DNA of 64,000 nucleotides from the NCBI RefSeq assembly GCF_024223415.1, contig NZ_CP100500.1. One strand, given 5' to 3'. The notes under the pieces are model-generated. The model ran no database searches. It had not been told where the DNA came from and was given only the letters and a program-made list of their open reading frames with translations. Numbering within the stretch: the first letter of the stretch is position 1; each line of letters starts with the position of its first letter. The stretch comes from Escherichia coli. Lineage in GTDB: Bacteria; Pseudomonadota; Gammaproteobacteria; Enterobacterales; Enterobacteriaceae. This document shows, piece after piece, positions 42,797-54,036 of this stretch. The position numbers and the translations under genes were made by a program.

Positions 42797-42873
42797 TGGA
42801 CCGCCACCGGGGACTCGAACCTCGCACACTCAACTTAAAGGGTTGACGCTCTTTCCTGATGAGCTAGTGGCGG
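42797..42873 (-). tRNA. tRNA-like gene with non-canonical anticodon loop CCUUUAA (by analogy to Stx-phage argN/argO position)
   Basis: Cloverleaf with 7-bp acceptor, GCTC/GAGC D-stem, TTCGAGT T-loop, CCA encoded; C33 and one T-stem mismatch. Confidence 0.55.
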
Positions 42874-42874
42874 T

Positions 42875-42950
42875 TGGTGGCCCTTGCTGGATTTGAACCA
42901 GCGACCTGGCGATTATGAGTCGCTCGCTCTCACCACTGAGCTAAAGGGCC
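42875..42950 (-). tRNA. tRNA with CAU anticodon (ileX/ileZ-like tRNA-Ile2 or Met)
   Basis: GGCCCTTTAGCTCAGTGGTGAGAGCGAGCGACTCATAATCGCCAGGTCGCTGGTTCAAATCCAGCAAGGGCCACCA folds as canonical cloverleaf. Confidence 0.8.
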
Positions 42951-46270: not shown

Positions 46271-46426
46271 TTACTCCTCAGGTTCGTAAGCTGTGAAGAC
46301 AGCGACCTCCGTCTGGCCGGTTCGGATTCGTACCTCGCAGAGGTCTTTCCTCGTTACCAGTGCCGTCACAATGACGGTAATACAGATGACGATCAGGGCG
46401 ACTAACATCGCCTTTTGCTGCTTCAT
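46271..46426 (-). CDS. hok: Hok/Gef family type I toxin
   Basis: 51 aa MKQQKAMLVALIVICITVIVTALVTRKDLCEVRIRTGQTEVAVFTAYEPEE, nearly identical to remembered HokD/RelF. Confidence 0.88.
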   Translation of the reverse strand: MKQQKAMLVALIVICITVIVTALVTRKDLCEVRIRTGQTEVAVFTAYEPEE

Positions 46427-46717
46427 AGCCTGCTTCTCCTTGCCTTTCGGCACGTAAGAGGCTAACCTAGATTTGCCGTTCATAGATTGAGCCTCAGATT
46501 AATGTTAAGCGTCTTGCCGGACGCGTAATGTTAACTGGGGCTTTTCTCTATCTGCCTTTTGGGGTTCATGCCTGAGACAGATAGCCTCAAGCACCCGCTG
46601 CAATTCTACTTAACTCTCCTTTTCCCGCAAACCATTTTTATCCCCAGCGGCAAATCGAATACACCACCAGCGCCACCGCCATCGCAATTCCTACCGTTGT
46701 GAATGCTTCAGGCCAGG

Positions 46718-50860: not shown

Positions 50861-51286
50861 TCAGTGCATCACCACAGCATTACCCGCCGGGCCACCACGA
50901 TTCATCTGATTGAAACCGGCGATTGCCACTGCGATAAAATCATCAGCGTCTCTCACCAGCCGTTCTCGTGTCTCCAGCAGCTCCCTGAAATAGGCTGAGC
51001 TGTGGCTACGCATTCTGGCCACCAGCAAAGGCGGCATTGCCTTTTCGATCGCTGGTAGTAACGCCTGAATTTTTTCAACCGCATCAGGGGTGTCTTTCTC
51101 CACCCAGCGGAAAATTTTCTGGGTATTACGGGCCAGGGCTTCCGGATGGCTGTCGTCATACAGTTCCGGGAACGTCATACCCAGCTCAAAATAAGCCCGG
51201 GTTATTTCAGCTGCCGGAACTTTTTCGCCATCCGGACGCGCCCAGGCATTCATCGCCATGCGGATGTGTTCATGCTTGATTTTCAT
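50861..51286 (-). CDS. YdaT-like protein (cII position)
   Basis: 141 aa; starts MKIKHEHI as remembered for Rac YdaT. Confidence 0.6.
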   Translation of the reverse strand: MKIKHEHIRMAMNAWARPDGEKVPAAEITRAYFELGMTFPELYDDSHPEALARNTQKIFRWVEKDTPDAVEKIQALLPAIEKAMPPLLVARMRSHSSAYFRELLETRERLVRDADDFIAVAIAGFNQMNRGGPAGNAVVMH

Positions 51287-51551
51287 GAATCAAGCTCCTA
51301 GTAAGTGGTTGTGTTAACGTTTTGGTATCTTCCAGCTCGGGCCAAATATTCATCCAATCAAAAGGCCTTAGTTGCTGACGTGTAACTTCACCATTACTGG
51401 CTCGCTCAATAAGGACACATAACGATGCCCCTAACATTTGACCTTTACTCAATGCCTTTCTTAGATAACCGATGCTAGTACCACACTCACATGCAAACAT
51501 ACGCTGTTCATCTGACGAAAGAGAATTGAGAAATATTCTTAATTCTTCCAT
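51270..51551 (-). CDS. Cro-like / YdaS-like HTH regulator
   Basis: 93 aa, first gene divergent from repressor; HTH ..CGTSIGYLRKALSKG.. Confidence 0.7.
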   Translation of the reverse strand: MEELRIFLNSLSSDEQRMFACECGTSIGYLRKALSKGQMLGASLCVLIERASNGEVTRQQLRPFDWMNIWPELEDTKTLTQPLTRSLIHENQA

Positions 51552-51581
51552 AGCTACTCCTTAGTAAACACAGCAAAAGAA

Positions 51582-51633
51582 TACCCACAGGTAAACAAAA
51601 GTCAATACCCTTGGGTTGTTTACCTTGCGGTAA
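51582..51633. promoter_or_regulatory. Right operator region: three TACC(C)-N-(G)GGTA-type half-palindromic sites between cro-like and repressor genes
   Basis: TACCCACAGGTA, TACCCTTGGGTT, TTACCTTGCGGTAA. Confidence 0.55.
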
Positions 51634-51652
51634 TCGCATCTATTATTTACCT

Positions 51653-52072
51653 ATGGACAAATATGAATTTAGACGACAACAACTCATCAAAATTCGTGAT
51701 GAGAAATGCGATGGTAAAGCGGTTAACGTGGCCAGAAAGATCGGTCGCGAGCCTTCTTATGTATCAAGAATGTTGTACCCAGAGGGGAAAAAAGGAAAAA
51801 AACGGATCGCTGATGATATGGTGGAGATTATAGAAGAGTCCTTTGGGTTACCCCGGGGATGGATGGATGGTATCGTTTCATCATCAACGAACACAGCCTC
51901 CAATTATGAAACAAGGGTTCTAACGCCACGACAACGTATTTTTTTAGATCTCTTAGACGAACTGCCTGAAAGTGAAGCGGATAACTTATTAAAAACTCTT
52001 GAAGAGAAAAAACAGTATTACAATATGATCTACGAAGAAATCCGTAAAAAGAAAGCACAAAACGCATCATAA
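51653..52072 (+). CDS. CI-like prophage repressor (HTH, no obvious peptidase domain)
   Basis: ATG at 51653 gives about 139 aa; HTH ..AVNVARKIGREPSYVSRML..; divergent from cro-like gene. Confidence 0.7.
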   Translation: MDKYEFRRQQLIKIRDEKCDGKAVNVARKIGREPSYVSRMLYPEGKKGKKRIADDMVEIIEESFGLPRGWMDGIVSSSTNTASNYETRVLTPRQRIFLDLLDELPESEADNLLKTLEEKKQYYNMIYEEIRKKKAQNAS

Positions 52073-52115
52073 CTCACCAAACAACCAGTCACCAGTTAAG
52101 ATACATCAAAAAAAT

Positions 52116-52152
52116 TACCCATGGGTATTTACTTCTTGGATACCCATGGGTA
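52116..52152. promoter_or_regulatory. Left operator: two identical perfect 12-bp palindromes TACCCATGGGTA, 25 bp centre to centre
   Basis: Sites at 52116-52127 and 52141-52152, same arms as the right operator sites. Confidence 0.65.
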
Positions 52153-52474
52153 TCCTTTCTTTCATACCAACCCACCCCGCCCCACAGAACGCAGGGCAAT
52201 ACTTCGAGTTACCAGGCAGTGGTCAGGGGTTAAGTAGCCAGCCCGAGGCGTATGAACATGACGGCAGGGTTTAACTTTAACTATGCAGCAGGTTTTTGTT
52301 CCGCTACCCCGGCGTTAAGGGGAAACAGAGGATTTCTCAGTGGGCGAAGTCAAACATCAGAATGGAAGGCATCCCGGGATCGGCAAAGAAGCAGCAATGG
52401 CGCTTTATATTGACATCAGCGCCATTGCCGGACAGGTAAGAATTATCAGAGCGGTAACTAAGCGGTATGTGCCT

Positions 52475-52675
52475 TTACTTCAGAAAGGCTCCGGTGATTA
52501 CACCGAAGATATTGTCAACGATTTCCTCATCGAATTGCGAGGACTCATCTTCAGTTACAAGGTGACCACAATTTTTGCAGATGGCTCCCGCGAAACTGTC
52601 AGAGCCCTGCGGCTTAAAGGATGTGTCGAAGACTTCGCCACCACATTCTGGGCAAGAAAACTTGATTGTATTCAT
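52475..52675 (-). CDS. Small zinc-ribbon protein (CPECGG..CKNCGH), reverse-oriented within leftward early leader
   Basis: ATG at 52675 preceded by AGAGGAAA RBS; 66 aa with two CxxC pairs. Confidence 0.55.
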   Translation of the reverse strand: MNTIKFSCPECGGEVFDTSFKPQGSDSFAGAICKNCGHLVTEDESSQFDEEIVDNIFGVITGAFLK

Positions 52676-53292
52676 AACCAATTTCCTCTCGGGTAACAGA
52701 CCCCTCAGAGGATACCACCTCGCCTGACGTGGTTAAAAGCAGGCACACAACACGAAAGCGCACGGCGAGGTAGCTGGTTCATATATAGCCTGTCGTTAAA
52801 TTTTCGTCGACCGTGCGCTTCCGGTTGTGGCACTCCGCGAAATGGCGCGGCGGTAAGCATGGCGGGGTTCCCTTCCCCTTGAGGACACCGGGTTGTCAGG
52901 TTGACCATGCGCCTGAGTGACAACCCCGCTGCAACGCCCTCTGTTATCAATTTTCTGGTGACGTTTGGCGGTATCAGTTTTACTCCGTGACTGCTCTGCC
53001 GCCCTTTTTAAAGTGAATTTTGTGATGTGGTGAATGCGGCTCAGCGCACGCGGAACAGTTAAAACCAAAAACAGAGTTATGGGTGGATTCTCTGTATCCG
53101 GCGTTAATTGTTAACTGGTTAACGTCACCTGGAGGCACCTGGCACCGCATCAACAAAGTTCACTTCGGTGATGAAAGGTAAGAGAAAATGTTGAATGTAG
53201 CTATTGAAAACCAGTACGGGTGGAATTATAGTGCACCTGCACCTCATAAAACGGGTGCCGGGCGTGGAAACCCGAAAGTTACTCGAGCGCAT

Positions 53293-53316
53293 AACCGCGC
53301 CGAAGCGGTTTTTTTA
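53293..53316 (+). terminator. Intrinsic terminator in leftward early leader (tL-like)
   Basis: AACCGC-GCCGAA-GCGGTT followed by T7. Confidence 0.6.
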
Positions 53317-53484
53317 TGCGTAATGCACAGCCACATTCAGATAATGGTGGGGCGTGCAGGGCAGCTGCAAGGCTGGCCGGGTTCTCGAGTGACCGGTATT
53401 TCCACCCCTGTACGTCTCGCCACCCTTATGGTCGTGGAAAGCCTCGGTGGTGAGTTAATTAACTTAACACTTGAGGATGCCATC

Positions 53485-54036
53485 ATGGCTACTACCCTTA
53501 CCCTTTCTCACCCTGACGTAACCATTGAAAATGGTCGCGCTGTCACTACGTCTATTGCGATCGCAGAATTCTTCGGCAAGCAGCATCACCATGTTGTTCA
53601 AAAAATAGAGGCCCTCGAATGTTCTGAACGCTTTTTAACCAGCAACTTTTCGCGGGTTAAATTCGAGCACCGTGGCAATACCTACAATGCCTACCAAATC
53701 ACCAAAAACGGCTTCGTTTTCCTGGTGATGGGCTTCACGGGCAAAAAGGCCGCTGCATTCAAGGAAGCCTACATTGCCGAGTTCGACCGCATGGAGGAAG
53801 AACTGCGCCGGAATAACACCACACCCGCTGACAAAATAATCCCGGGTGATGGCCGCACCCTGGTTATCCGCTTCGACGAACACGGCTACATCAAATTCAC
53901 CGAAACCGTTCCTGATGGCGCACTGGTCTGTACTCTGGATACTTTCCGTTTTTATCTGGAAAAGCAGGGATGGACTCTCATAAACCGGGGCGCAATTAAA
54001 AATATGACCGTCGAGCAGTTGCTGAGTATTAAATAG
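53485..54036 (+). CDS. Rha family phage regulatory protein
   Basis: ATG at 53485 with GAGGA RBS; ..TTSIAIAEFFGKQHHHVVQKIEAL.. Rha motif; ORF track start 53188 is an upstream extension across the terminator. Confidence 0.72.
   Translation: MATTLTLSHPDVTIENGRAVTTSIAIAEFFGKQHHHVVQKIEALECSERFLTSNFSRVKFEHRGNTYNAYQITKNGFVFLVMGFTGKKAAAFKEAYIAEFDRMEEELRRNNTTPADKIIPGDGRTLVIRFDEHGYIKFTETVPDGALVCTLDTFRFYLEKQGWTLINRGAIKNMTVEQLLSIK

What the first reader, a model, noticed from the sequence alone, without database searches (positions are those of the whole stretch)
51582..52152. Immunity region operators built on a TACCC-N2-GGGTA palindrome, with two perfect copies on the left side
Three imperfect sites lie between cro and the repressor gene and two perfect 12-bp palindromes (TACCCATGGGTA) lie 25 bp apart downstream of the repressor gene. 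This defines the immunity specificity of the prophage and allows prediction of homoimmune relatives.
Basis: seen in the sequence. Interest (0 to 1): 0.35.

Follow-up and report, generated by a model that had tools for sequence, protein, structure and literature searches.

The report
Prophage repressor operators, TACC-N4-GGTA type
The five short palindromes are almost certainly the binding sites through which this E. coli prophage's repressor and Cro-like protein control its three early promoters, an ordinary lambda-style switch whose particular repressor/operator family has not been described experimentally.

Summary
Three sites lie between the divergent cro-like and repressor genes, at 51582, 51606 and 51621. 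Two identical TACCCATGGGTA copies lie 25 bp apart just after the repressor gene, at 52116 and 52141.

The conserved core is TACC-N4-GGTA, not TACCC-N2-GGGTA. This core has four exact matches in 64 kb against 0.38 expected, all in this region. The fifth site has one mismatch.

In 53 haplotypes of the cassette the outer eight bases are almost invariant and the central four vary freely. Ten independent lineages encode a homologous DNA-binding domain and a homologous Cro: E. coli phages mEp043 and CharmingMan, and Mannheimia, Serratia, Yersinia, Chromobacterium and metagenomic loci. All have three sites spaced 24-25 and 15-16 bp, interlocked with the promoter hexamers. The eight whose left operator was found have two sites 25-26 bp apart. 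A phage with the same flanks but a different DNA-binding domain carries different palindromes at both places.

So these are OR1-3 and OL1-2 of a lambda-like switch. The repressor is a chimera: an mEp043-type HTH domain joined to a DicA-type, non-cleavable tail. The OL pair also forms a terminator-like hairpin. No binding experiment exists. This is a new member of a known kind, of modest interest.

The parts
51582..51593 (.). OR1, TACCCACAGGTA. Lies in the spacer of the predicted rightward (cro-ward) promoter PR and overlaps its -10 by 2 bp.
   Evidence: Homologous position in 10 lineages. Only central positions 5-8 vary among 53 haplotypes, apart from two singleton changes at position 1.
51606..51617 (.). 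OR2, TACCCTTGGGTT. Its right half is imperfect. It abuts the PR -35 and lies 1 bp (51618) upstream of the PRM -35. Its centre is about -41.5 from the repressor ATG and predicted start site.
   Evidence: A degenerate right half (GGTT/GGTC/GGGA) is conserved across lineages. The commonest haplotype is TACCCACAGGTT.
51621..51632 (.). OR3, TACCTTGCGGTA. Its left half is part of the predicted PRM -35, TTTACC.
   Evidence: The 15-16 bp offset from OR2 and the TTTACC overlap are conserved in all 10 lineages.
52116..52127 (.). OL2 (promoter-distal), TACCCATGGGTA. Directly abuts the predicted PL -35.
   Evidence: In relatives the distal OL site is followed immediately by TTGACA, TTGACC, TTTACA and similar hexamers.
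52141..52152 (.). OL1 (promoter-proximal), TACCCATGGGTA. Core of the 18-bp perfect palindrome GGATACCCATGGGTATCC. Its last two bases are the first two of the predicted PL -10.
   Evidence: In relatives the proximal OL site runs into TATAAT, TATATT or TATTTT.
51578..51605 (-). Predicted PR: -35 TTGACT (51605-51600), 16-bp spacer, -10 TATTCT (51583-51578). Drives the cro-like and ydaT-like genes and the replication genes.
   Evidence: Promoter scan. In all lineages the reverse complement of the OR1 left flank reads TAnnnT and the OR2 left flank reads TTGnnn.
51619..51646 (+). Predicted PRM: -35 TTTACC, 16-bp spacer, -10 TATTAT. The -10 ends 6 nt before the ATG at 51653, with no Shine-Dalgarno sequence, so the repressor mRNA is predicted to be leaderless.
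   Evidence: Promoter scan. mEp043, Serratia and Yersinia have the same layout of GGTA, 8 nt, a TAnnAT-type hexamer, 6 nt, then ATG. There is no variation at 51639-51660 in 53 haplotypes.
52128..52156 (+). Predicted PL: -35 TTTACT (52128-52133), 17-bp spacer, -10 TATCCT (52151-52156), start near 52163. Drives the early-left operon: DicF, isrK/C4, Rha-like gene, kil, exonuclease, xis, int.
   Evidence: Read from the sequence. It scores 8 of 12 and so falls below the scan threshold. Support comes from the homologous geometry in relatives and from homology with heteroimmune phages resuming at 52170.
51653..52072 (+). Repressor gene, 139 aa. The N-terminal HTH domain (about residues 1-75) is of the mEp043-cI type. 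The C-terminal helical hairpin (about residues 90-139) is of the DicA/Tritos type. There is no S24 peptidase domain.
51270..51551 (-). cro-like (YdaS-type) gene, 93 aa, with an AAGGAG Shine-Dalgarno sequence.
   Evidence: It is 39-73% identical to the Cro of every locus that has the homologous repressor domain, and gives no match to the Tritos Cro.
50861..51286 (-). ydaT-like (cII-equivalent) gene.
   Evidence: Pfam YdaT_toxin 39.5 bits against a cut-off of 21. phrog_163 CII-like activator.
51276..51293 (.). Exact copy of the published YdaT operator, TTGATTTTCATGAATCAA, at the ydaS/ydaT junction.
   Evidence: Motif and location as footprinted in CP-933P (PMC9986795).
52116..52165 (+). In the repressor transcript, a 16-bp hairpin formed by OL2 and OL1 followed by UCCUUUCUUUCAU. 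A terminator-like structure.
   Evidence: -24.2 kcal/mol, z = -3.7. There is no other terminator between the stop codon at 52072 and PL.
51299..51955 (.). Immunity-specific segment 1: cro, OR and the repressor DNA-binding domain.
   Evidence: No similarity to heteroimmune phage Tritos, although the flanks match at 88.6% and 77%.
52073..52169 (.). Immunity-specific segment 2: OL and PL.
   Evidence: No similarity to Tritos. Homology of 95.6% resumes at 52170.

Best explanation
The five TACC-N4-GGTA palindromes are the operators of a lambda-type bistable switch in a lambdoid prophage integrated next to ompW.

Proposed mechanism (inferred):
- Dimers of the 139-aa repressor bind them. Its N-terminal XRE-like HTH domain has the recognition helix PSYVSRML.
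- OR1 and OR2 cover the -10/spacer and the -35 edge of PR, which drives the cro-like and ydaT-like genes and the replication genes.
- OL1 and OL2 do the same at PL, which drives an operon carrying DicF, a Rha-like gene preceded by isrK/C4 RNAs, kil, exonuclease, xis and int.
- OR2, centred about 41.5 bp upstream of the repressor start, is placed to activate PRM. OR3 overlaps the PRM -35 and would shut PRM at high repressor levels.
- The repressor mRNA is predicted to be leaderless.
- By analogy with lambda and CP-933P, the YdaS-type Cro binds the same sites with the opposite preference.

Shown here: the sites, their non-random occurrence, their conservation pattern, their co-inheritance with the DNA-binding domain and Cro, and the promoter-like hexamers.

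Inferred: actual binding, order of occupancy, activation, and leaderless initiation.

The repressor has no S24 domain, so RecA-mediated self-cleavage is not available to it. Induction, if any, would need an antirepressor or another route.
For: 1. Statistics. There are 4 exact TACC-N4-GGTA matches in 64 kb against 0.38 expected (0 of 100 shuffles reach 4), all within 571 bp. It is the top palindrome in an unbiased count.

2. Conservation in 53 haplotypes. Outer positions vary at 3 of 40, other non-coding positions at 45 of 129, and central positions at 14 of 20. Fisher p = 5e-4 for outer versus other non-coding and 1e-6 for outer versus central.

3. Ten lineages with a homologous DNA-binding domain (45-68% identity) carry three OR sites with offsets of 24-25 and 15-16 bp. 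The first site starts 71-74 bp before the ATG in nine of the ten. Eight of the ten also show two OL sites 25-26 bp apart. The lineages are the window, mEp043, CharmingMan, Mannheimia 587AP2, Serratia, Yersinia, Chromobacterium and three metagenomic loci.

4. The promoter hexamers interlock with the sites in the same way in every lineage, as GGTA|TTGACn ... TACCnnnnGG[TAnnnT].

5. Negative control. Phage Tritos has the same ydaT, the same repressor C-terminus and the same PL leader. It has an HTH_3 DNA-binding domain and an unrelated Cro, and it carries GTAC-type palindromes at both positions. The differences map to 51299-51955 and 52073-52169 only.

6. The predicted structure has four well-modelled N-terminal helices with pLDDT of about 90. 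The best PDB fold matches are a phage repressor and XRE-family HTH proteins.

7. The experimentally studied CP-933P switch (PaaR2/YdaS/YdaT) has the same gene layout, OR and OL operators, a PL and a leaderless repressor gene (PMC8630535).
Against: - No binding, footprint, start-site or reporter data exist for this cassette or for any member of this repressor family. The accessible literature does not contain these 12-mers as operators.
- The repressor matches no Pfam HTH model. Foldseek E-values are weak, 2e-3 at best.
- Cro and the repressor domain always co-occur, so the comparison cannot say which of the two proteins reads the motif.
- The PL hexamers are weak, 8 of 12, and were not reported by the scan.
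- A 12-bp site with half-site centres 8 bp apart is short for an HTH dimer, so the true footprint probably extends into the A/T-rich flanks.
Confidence: 0.87

Rival explanations
1. Dual role, not exclusive of the main explanation. The two OL palindromes also act in RNA, as the stem of the intrinsic terminator of the repressor (PRM) transcript. This would keep read-through out of the toxic early-left operon in the lysogen.
For: - The terminator scan lists 52116-52152 (16 pairs) and 52138-52155 (7 pairs), each followed by a T-rich run.
- The RNA fold gives -24.2 kcal/mol, z = -3.7, with 0 of 200 shuffles as stable.
- No other hairpin with a T run lies between the stop codon at 52072 and PL. In contrast, mEp043, CharmingMan, Serratia and Chromobacterium have a canonical GC hairpin with a T run between the repressor region and OL.
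- Inter-site pairing is 12 of 12 in 51 of 53 haplotypes. This includes two series that pass through G-U intermediates to a new Watson-Crick pair.
Against: - Any two near-identical palindromes will pair, so the hairpin follows automatically from the operator design.
- The tail begins UCCU rather than with a clean U run.
- The covariation rests on about 4 compatible against 2-3 incompatible mutational events, which is about what chance gives.
- No 3'-end data exist.
Confidence: 0.35
2. The two perfect copies downstream of the repressor gene are only a terminator hairpin, and only the intergenic sites are operators.
For: The hairpin with a T-rich tail. The weak PL hexamers.
Against: - Eight lineages have a pair of TACC-N4-GGTA sites 25-26 bp apart and interlocked with good -35 and -10 hexamers, for example TTGACA or TATAAT. 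Several of these also have a separate canonical terminator.
- The OL segment is swapped together with the DNA-binding domain relative to Tritos.
- An early-left operon on the + strand needs a repressible promoter here.
Confidence: 0.04
3. The palindromes are read only by the Cro-like YdaS protein, or by another factor, and the 139-aa protein recognises a different sequence.
For: Cro and the repressor domain co-vary completely, so the comparison cannot separate them. The repressor has no Pfam HTH match.
Against: - No other repeated element is present in either non-coding stretch.
- The repressor's helix 3 (PSYVSRML) is nearly invariant across lineages that keep the TACC half-site. In the Pseudomonas relative both the helix and the half-site spacing change together, to PTQVSRLI with TGTACC-N5-GGTACA.
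- In lambda and in CP-933P both proteins share the operators (PMC8630535).
Confidence: 0.05
4. Chance palindromes with no regulatory role.
Against: as set out above.
Confidence: 0.01

Closest known systems
Bacteriophage lambda cI/Cro switch (OR1-3, OL1-3, PR, PRM, PL)
   Same: - Divergent repressor and cro genes, with three operators interlocked with two promoters.
- A second operator cluster at the early-left promoter downstream of the repressor gene.
- OR2 is centred about -41.5 from the repressor start.
- The repressor mRNA is predicted to be leaderless.
(Textbook knowledge.)
   Different: - The operator is 12 bp (TACC-N4-GGTA) rather than 17 bp.
- There are two OL sites rather than three.
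- OR2 and OR3 are only 15 bp apart.
- The repressor has no S24 cleavage domain.
- Cro is of the YdaS type and cII is replaced by YdaT.
CP-933P switch of E. coli O157:H7: PaaR2 / YdaS / YdaT (PMC8630535; PMC9986795)
   Same: - The same gene layout, with a repressor gene divergent from ydaS-ydaT.
- OR and OL operators and a PL, shown by footprinting and reporters in that system.
- A leaderless repressor gene and a non-S24 repressor.
- The YdaT operator TTGATT-N6-AATCAA is present here, exact, at the same junction.
   Different: - The operator sequence differs: an 18-bp inverted repeat with consensus half GTTTAGTAA in CP-933P.
- No toxin-antitoxin genes follow the repressor here.
- Homology between PaaR2 and this repressor was not tested.
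Phage mEp043 cI/cro (also phage CharmingMan)
   Same: - The repressor N-terminal domain is 65% identical, with an identical recognition helix.
- Cro is 73% identical in mEp043 and 49% in CharmingMan.
- The 3+2 operator layout and core are the same. CharmingMan OR1 and OR2 equal this OR1, TACCCACAGGTA.
   Different: - Their repressors carry a Peptidase_S24 C-terminal domain and are 222-228 aa long.
- Their operators prefer TACCT...AGGTA.
- They have a separate terminator before OL.
- Their operators are annotated nowhere and are unstudied in the literature searched.
DicA/DicC control of the dicB operon in the Qin prophage (own knowledge; NCBIfam NF007257)
   Same: - A small repressor without a cleavage domain.
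- The C-terminal ~50 residues match the DicA profile at positions 79-131.
- It represses a left operon that contains DicF and dicB remnants.
   Different: - The N-terminal DNA-binding domain is not DicA-like. The score of 24 bits is far below the family cut-off of 101.
- The operators are different.
Phage 434 repressor/operator (own knowledge)
   Same: The outer 4 bp of each half-site are conserved. The central bases are variable, are presumably not contacted, and could tune affinity.
   Different: 434 uses ACAA-N6-TTGT (14 bp). The proteins are only fold-level relatives.

Membership tests
Lambdoid immunity-region operator set (OR/OL) | Divergently transcribed repressor and cro genes separated by a short regulatory region | tested here: met
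   The cro-like gene lies at 51270-51551 (-) and the repressor gene at 51653-52072 (+), 101 bp apart.
Lambdoid immunity-region operator set (OR/OL) | Several copies of one palindromic site overlapping two face-to-face promoters | tested here: met
   Three sites, together with the PR and PRM hexamers found by the scan.
Lambdoid immunity-region operator set (OR/OL) | A second cluster of the same site at the early-left promoter beyond the repressor gene | tested here: met
   Sites at 52116 and 52141. The PL hexamers are weak here (8 of 12) but are good in the homologous position in relatives.
Lambdoid immunity-region operator set (OR/OL) | Operators co-inherited with the repressor's DNA-binding specificity | tested here: met
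   Ten lineages keep the motif together with the domain. Tritos has another domain and other palindromes in the same frame.
Lambdoid immunity-region operator set (OR/OL) | Specific binding of repressor and Cro to the sites, and repression in vivo | not testable with these tools
   Needs EMSA or footprinting and reporter assays.
XRE / lambda-repressor-like HTH DNA-binding domain | Helical HTH fold similar to solved XRE-family domains | tested here: met
   The AlphaFold2 model has helices at residues 3-18, 23-30, 34-40 and 54-63 with pLDDT of about 90. The top Foldseek PDB hits are the SPC32H Rep (5d50), C proteins, HigA and 434 repressor, with weak E-values of 2e-3 to 0.3.
XRE / lambda-repressor-like HTH DNA-binding domain | Match to a Pfam HTH model (HTH_3 or similar) | tested here: not met
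   No Pfam family at E <= 0.01. PDB sequence search gave only noise.
LexA-like, RecA-cleavable CI repressors | C-terminal Peptidase_S24 domain | tested here: not met
   Absent from the window's repressor. Present in mEp043, CharmingMan, Rb1, Mannheimia and Pseudomonas relatives.
DicA (NCBIfam NF007257) | Full-length match above the curated cut-off of 101 bits | tested here: not met
   24.1 bits, covering the C-terminal residues 84-136 only. The Tritos-type repressor matches over its full length at 56.8 bits.
YdaS/YdaT-type switch (CP-933P, Rac) | YdaT homologue downstream of a Cro-like gene | tested here: met
   Pfam YdaT_toxin at 39.5 bits against a cut-off of 21.
YdaS/YdaT-type switch (CP-933P, Rac) | YdaS family membership of the Cro-like protein | tested here: inconclusive
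   Pfam YdaS_toxin at 25.9 bits, below the cut-off of 30. RefSeq annotates some copies as a YdaS family HTH protein.
YdaS/YdaT-type switch (CP-933P, Rac) | YdaT operator TTGATT-N6-AATCAA at the ydaS/ydaT junction | tested here: met
   Exact match at 51276-51293, the only exact one in the window. Location as in PMC9986795.
YdaS/YdaT-type switch (CP-933P, Rac) | Repressor homologous to PaaR2 or RacR | not tested
Rho-independent terminator | GC-containing hairpin followed by a U run at the end of a transcription unit | tested here: inconclusive
   The hairpin and T-rich tail are present. The tail is imperfect, the covariation is not significant, and no 3'-end data exist.

The most novel reading that the evidence does not exclude
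One operator core (TACC-N4-GGTA) and one recognition helix are shared by two kinds of repressor. The first kind is the SOS-cleavable CI repressors of free-living phages such as mEp043 and CharmingMan. The second is the non-cleavable, DicA-tailed repressors resident in about 15% of complete E. coli genomes.

If the DNA-binding domains cross-recognise each other's sites, these prophages would give their hosts immunity to a whole set of S24-type phages, and that immunity could not be lifted by SOS induction. CharmingMan's OR1 and OR2 are identical to this prophage's OR1, which makes such cross-recognition plausible.

The central 4 bp are more variable than neutral non-coding positions. They would then be the place where immunity specificity is tuned or escaped. 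In the same reading, the OL operator pair doubles as the terminator of the leaderless repressor transcript.
Probability: 0.2. Interest if true: 0.5.

Novelty: new member of a known kind. Interest (0 to 1): 0.25.

Why it matters
- The sites define how this prophage keeps its early genes silent. Those genes include the cell-division inhibitors DicF and kil.
- The cassette is common, in 823 of 5426 complete E. coli genomes, including ST131, EPEC E2348/69, O26, O111 and some O157 strains. A defined repressor, operator and promoter map is therefore useful for grouping prophages by immunity. It is also useful for predicting superinfection immunity and for explaining stable double lysogens with the same immunity (TUM1886).
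- The family-wide rule (TACC-N4-GGTA, three sites plus two, fixed geometry) lets operators be annotated automatically in many uncharacterised temperate phages of Proteobacteria.
- It offers a compact 12-bp operator and small repressor for synthetic circuits.
- Conceptually it adds nothing beyond the lambda paradigm unless the predicted cross-immunity or the dual operator/terminator role proves real.

Tried and rejected
- Pfam on the repressor gave no family. PDB sequence search gave only noise, with ADAR Z-alpha at E = 0.075.
- A full-text search for six operator 12-mers returned only unrelated primer sequences. Papers that mention mEp043 do not treat its immunity region.
- A viral-contig scan with the single N-terminal domain returned only 99-100% identical copies. 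These were useful for haplotype variation but not for distant comparison. Distant lineages had to be reached through the protein search and contig look-ups.
Each has 2 mismatches in the conserved TACC/GGTA core.
- A possible fourth site over the repressor start codon was rejected. TACCTATGGACA at 51648-51659 has 2 core mismatches and no counterpart in mEp043.
- Covariation in support of the OL2/OL1 RNA hairpin was examined. There are too few independent events, about 4 compatible against 2-3 incompatible, to count as evidence.
- Xanthomonas phage Rb1 and Pseudomonas phage 5400 do not fit the simple layout. Rb1 has the core, but its second and third OR sites are degenerate and its OL spacing is 43 bp. 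Phage 5400 uses TGTACC-N5-GGTACA. Both were left out of the compiled matrix.
- L101 is a noisy metagenomic copy of the same cassette and not an independent lineage.
Full report
**What is in the sequence.** The window carries a lambdoid prophage inserted beside ompW. Its immunity region reads as follows.
- A ydaT-like (cII-equivalent) gene lies at 50861-51286 (-).
- A 93-aa YdaS/Cro-like gene lies at 51270-51551 (-).
- A 101-bp gap follows.
- A 139-aa repressor gene lies at 51653-52072 (+).

- 51582 TACCCACAGGTA
- 51606 TACCCTTGGGTT
- 51621 TACCTTGCGGTA
- 52116 and 52141, both TACCCATGGGTA

The last of these is the core of an 18-bp perfect palindrome, GGATACCCATGGGTATCC.

The three imperfect sites therefore needed independent support.

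The conserved core turned out to be TACC-N4-GGTA. It has four exact matches in 64 kb against 0.38 expected, and none of 100 shuffles reached four. All four lie in this region, and the fifth site has one mismatch. An unbiased count of every 4-N(0-8)-4 palindrome in the two non-coding stretches ranks TACC-N4-GGTA first.

**Variation within the cassette.** The cassette (51280-52170) occurs in 823 of 5426 complete E. coli genomes at 95-100% identity. These include EC958, E2348/69, O26, O111 and an O157:H7 strain.

From those genomes and 80 IMG/VR loci I obtained 53 distinct haplotypes. The proportion of variable positions is:
- 3 of 40 for the eight outer bases of the five sites
- 45 of 129 for the other non-coding positions
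- 14 of 20 for the four central bases

Fisher's test gives p = 5e-4 for outer versus other non-coding, 1e-6 for outer versus central, and 0.006 for central versus other non-coding.

Two perfect OL copies occur in 12 of the 53 haplotypes. The commonest OL1 is TACCTATGGGTA and the commonest OR2 is TACCCACAGGTT.

**Comparison with distant relatives.**
- The repressor's first ~86 residues are 65% identical to the N-terminus of the cI of E. coli phages mEp043 and CharmingMan.
- They are 45-50% identical to the CI of Mannheimia phage 587AP2 and Xanthomonas phage Rb1.
- They are 46-68% identical to 133-148-aa proteins in prophages of Serratia, Yersinia and Chromobacterium and in three metagenomic contigs.

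Every one of these loci also encodes a homologous Cro, 39-73% identical.

In ten lineages the region upstream of the repressor gene has three TACC-N4-GGTA sites with offsets of 24-25 and 15-16 bp. The first site starts 71-74 bp before the ATG in nine of the ten. Eight of the ten also show a pair of sites 25-26 bp apart further downstream.

The sites interlock with promoter hexamers in the same way everywhere:
- The left flank of OR2 reads, in reverse complement, TTGACT or TTGCAT, the PR -35.
- OR1 runs into a TAnnnT hexamer, the PR -10.
- The left half of OR3 is the ACC of TTTACC, the PRM -35.
- The distal OL site is followed at once by TTGACA, TTGACC or TTTACT.
- The proximal OL site runs into TATAAT, TATATT or TATCCT.

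In the window the promoter scan independently reports just two sites in 51400-52500:
- PR: TTGACT, 16 bp, TATTCT at 51605-51578 (-)
- PRM: TTTACC, 16 bp, TATTAT at 51619-51646 (+)

The PL candidate (TTTACT, 17 bp, TATCCT at 52128-52156) scores 8 of 12 and was not listed. It rests on the homologous geometry.

**Negative control.** Phage Tritos shares the following with the window:
- the ydaT gene, at 88.6% up to 51298
- the last ~117 bp of the repressor gene, at 77%
- the PL leader from 52170 onward, at 95.6%

It shows no similarity in 51299-51955 (cro, OR, DNA-binding domain) or in 52073-52169 (OL/PL). Its repressor has an HTH_3 domain and its Cro is unrelated. Both of its regulatory regions carry GTAC-type palindromes instead. 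The two operator-bearing segments are therefore exchanged together with the DNA-binding domain, as expected for a repressor and its operators.

**The proteins.** The repressor matches no Pfam model. Its AlphaFold2 model has a confident four-helix N-terminal domain and a C-terminal helical hairpin. The closest PDB folds are a Salmonella phage repressor (5d50) and XRE-family HTH proteins, with weak E-values.

The C-terminal ~50 residues match the DicA profile and the Tritos-type repressor. All the distant relatives listed as phage CI carry a Peptidase_S24 domain instead. The repressor is thus a domain chimera: an mEp043-type DNA-binding domain on a DicA-type tail that cannot self-cleave. The recognition helix PSYVSRML is nearly invariant wherever the TACC half-site is kept. 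In Pseudomonas phage 5400 both change together, to PTQVSRLI with TGTACC-N5-GGTACA.

**How it most likely works (inference by analogy with lambda and CP-933P).** The CP-933P switch has been studied experimentally (PMC8630535).
- Repressor dimers at OR1 and OR2 block PR, and dimers at OL1 and OL2 block PL.
- OR2, centred about -41.5 from the repressor start, is placed to activate PRM.
- OR3, over the PRM -35, would limit repressor synthesis.
- The -10-like hexamer ends 6 nt before the ATG and there is no Shine-Dalgarno sequence. mEp043, Serratia and Yersinia have the same arrangement. The mRNA is therefore predicted to be leaderless, as for lambda cI and paaR2.
- The Cro-like protein presumably uses the same sites.

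PL leads into DicF, a dicB remnant, the isrK and C4 RNAs, a Rha-like gene, kil, exonuclease, xis and int. The OL sites therefore keep cell-division inhibitors silent.

**A second possible role.** In the repressor transcript OL2 and OL1 pair into a 16-bp hairpin of -24.2 kcal/mol (z = -3.7) followed by UCCUUUCUUUCAU. No other terminator separates the repressor gene from PL. Several relatives have a canonical terminator there.

The pairing is kept in 51 of 53 haplotypes, but the number of independent substitutions is too small to test. I rate a dual operator/terminator role at about 0.35. I rate the idea that the pair is only a terminator at about 0.04.

**Comparison with what is known, and novelty.** The design is the lambda design. 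The closest studied system is CP-933P, which has a different operator sequence. The exact YdaT operator described for CP-933P is present here at 51276-51293.

I found no description of this operator family in the searchable literature. It is therefore a new member of a known kind.

The core and the recognition helix are family-wide, and CharmingMan has the identical 12-mer at two of its sites. Whether such phages are cross-immune is an open and testable question.

Noticed in passing
window 51276-51293: An exact copy of the experimentally defined YdaT operator TTGATT-N6-AATCAA (TTGATTTTCATGAATCAA) lies at the end of the ydaS-like gene and over the start codon of the ydaT-like gene. It lies in the part shared with heteroimmune phages.
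   Followed up: partly
window 52953-53004, 53239-53315, 53340-53427 (+): Rfam finds DicF, isrK and C4 antisense RNA in a row downstream of the predicted PL. The isrK and C4 matches lie inside the 5' part of the long ORF 53188-54036 (Ash and Rha domains), so the real Rha-like gene probably starts later. This resembles the P1/Gifsy antirepressor control module. It may be relevant to how a non-cleavable repressor is inactivated.
   Followed up: no
L001 and L094 (E. coli TUM1886, NZ_CP128970.1 at about 2.107 Mb and 3.049 Mb): One genome carries two prophages with the same repressor (WP_000362152.1), the same Cro (WP_000391948.1) and the same operators. One is at ompW and one at tRNA-Ser/mtfA, so this is a homoimmune double lysogen.
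   Followed up: partly
window 51586-51589, 51610-51613, 52122-52123, 52145-52148: The central four bases of the operators vary more than the other non-coding positions of the cassette (14 of 20 against 45 of 129, p = 0.006). OR2 exists as two main alleles, CTTG and CACA. The reason is unknown; it could be affinity tuning, diversifying selection or gene conversion between sites.
   Followed up: partly
window 51956-52072 compared with L004 2723-2839: The repressor is a domain chimera. Its last ~50 residues are about 70% identical to those of the DicA-like, HTH_3 repressor of phage Tritos. Its DNA-binding domain comes from the mEp043-type family, whose other members are S24 peptidase fusions.
   Followed up: yes
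window 52340-52696 (+) and 52475-52681 (-): Two overlapping ORFs lie on opposite strands between PL and DicF. One is a 118-aa + strand ORF, whose residues 20-117 match phrog_21318. The other is a 68-aa zinc-ribbon ORF on the - strand, which RefSeq annotates as an ECs_2282 family protein. In close relatives this position holds ydfA-ydfB-ydfC instead.
   Followed up: no
window 46421-46596 (-) and 42797-42950 (-): A sok antitoxin RNA (hok/sok module) and two phage-borne tRNA genes lie in the prophage's late-regulatory region. ARAGORN calls the tRNAs Lys-UUU and Met-CAU. The corresponding genes in the closest genome are annotated Arg and Ile.
   Followed up: no
L002 3553-3580 (mEp043): Upstream of its two OL sites, mEp043 has a split palindrome, TTACCTG-N10-CAGGTAA. 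This could be a third, wider-spaced operator or a looping site. It has no counterpart in the window.
   Followed up: no
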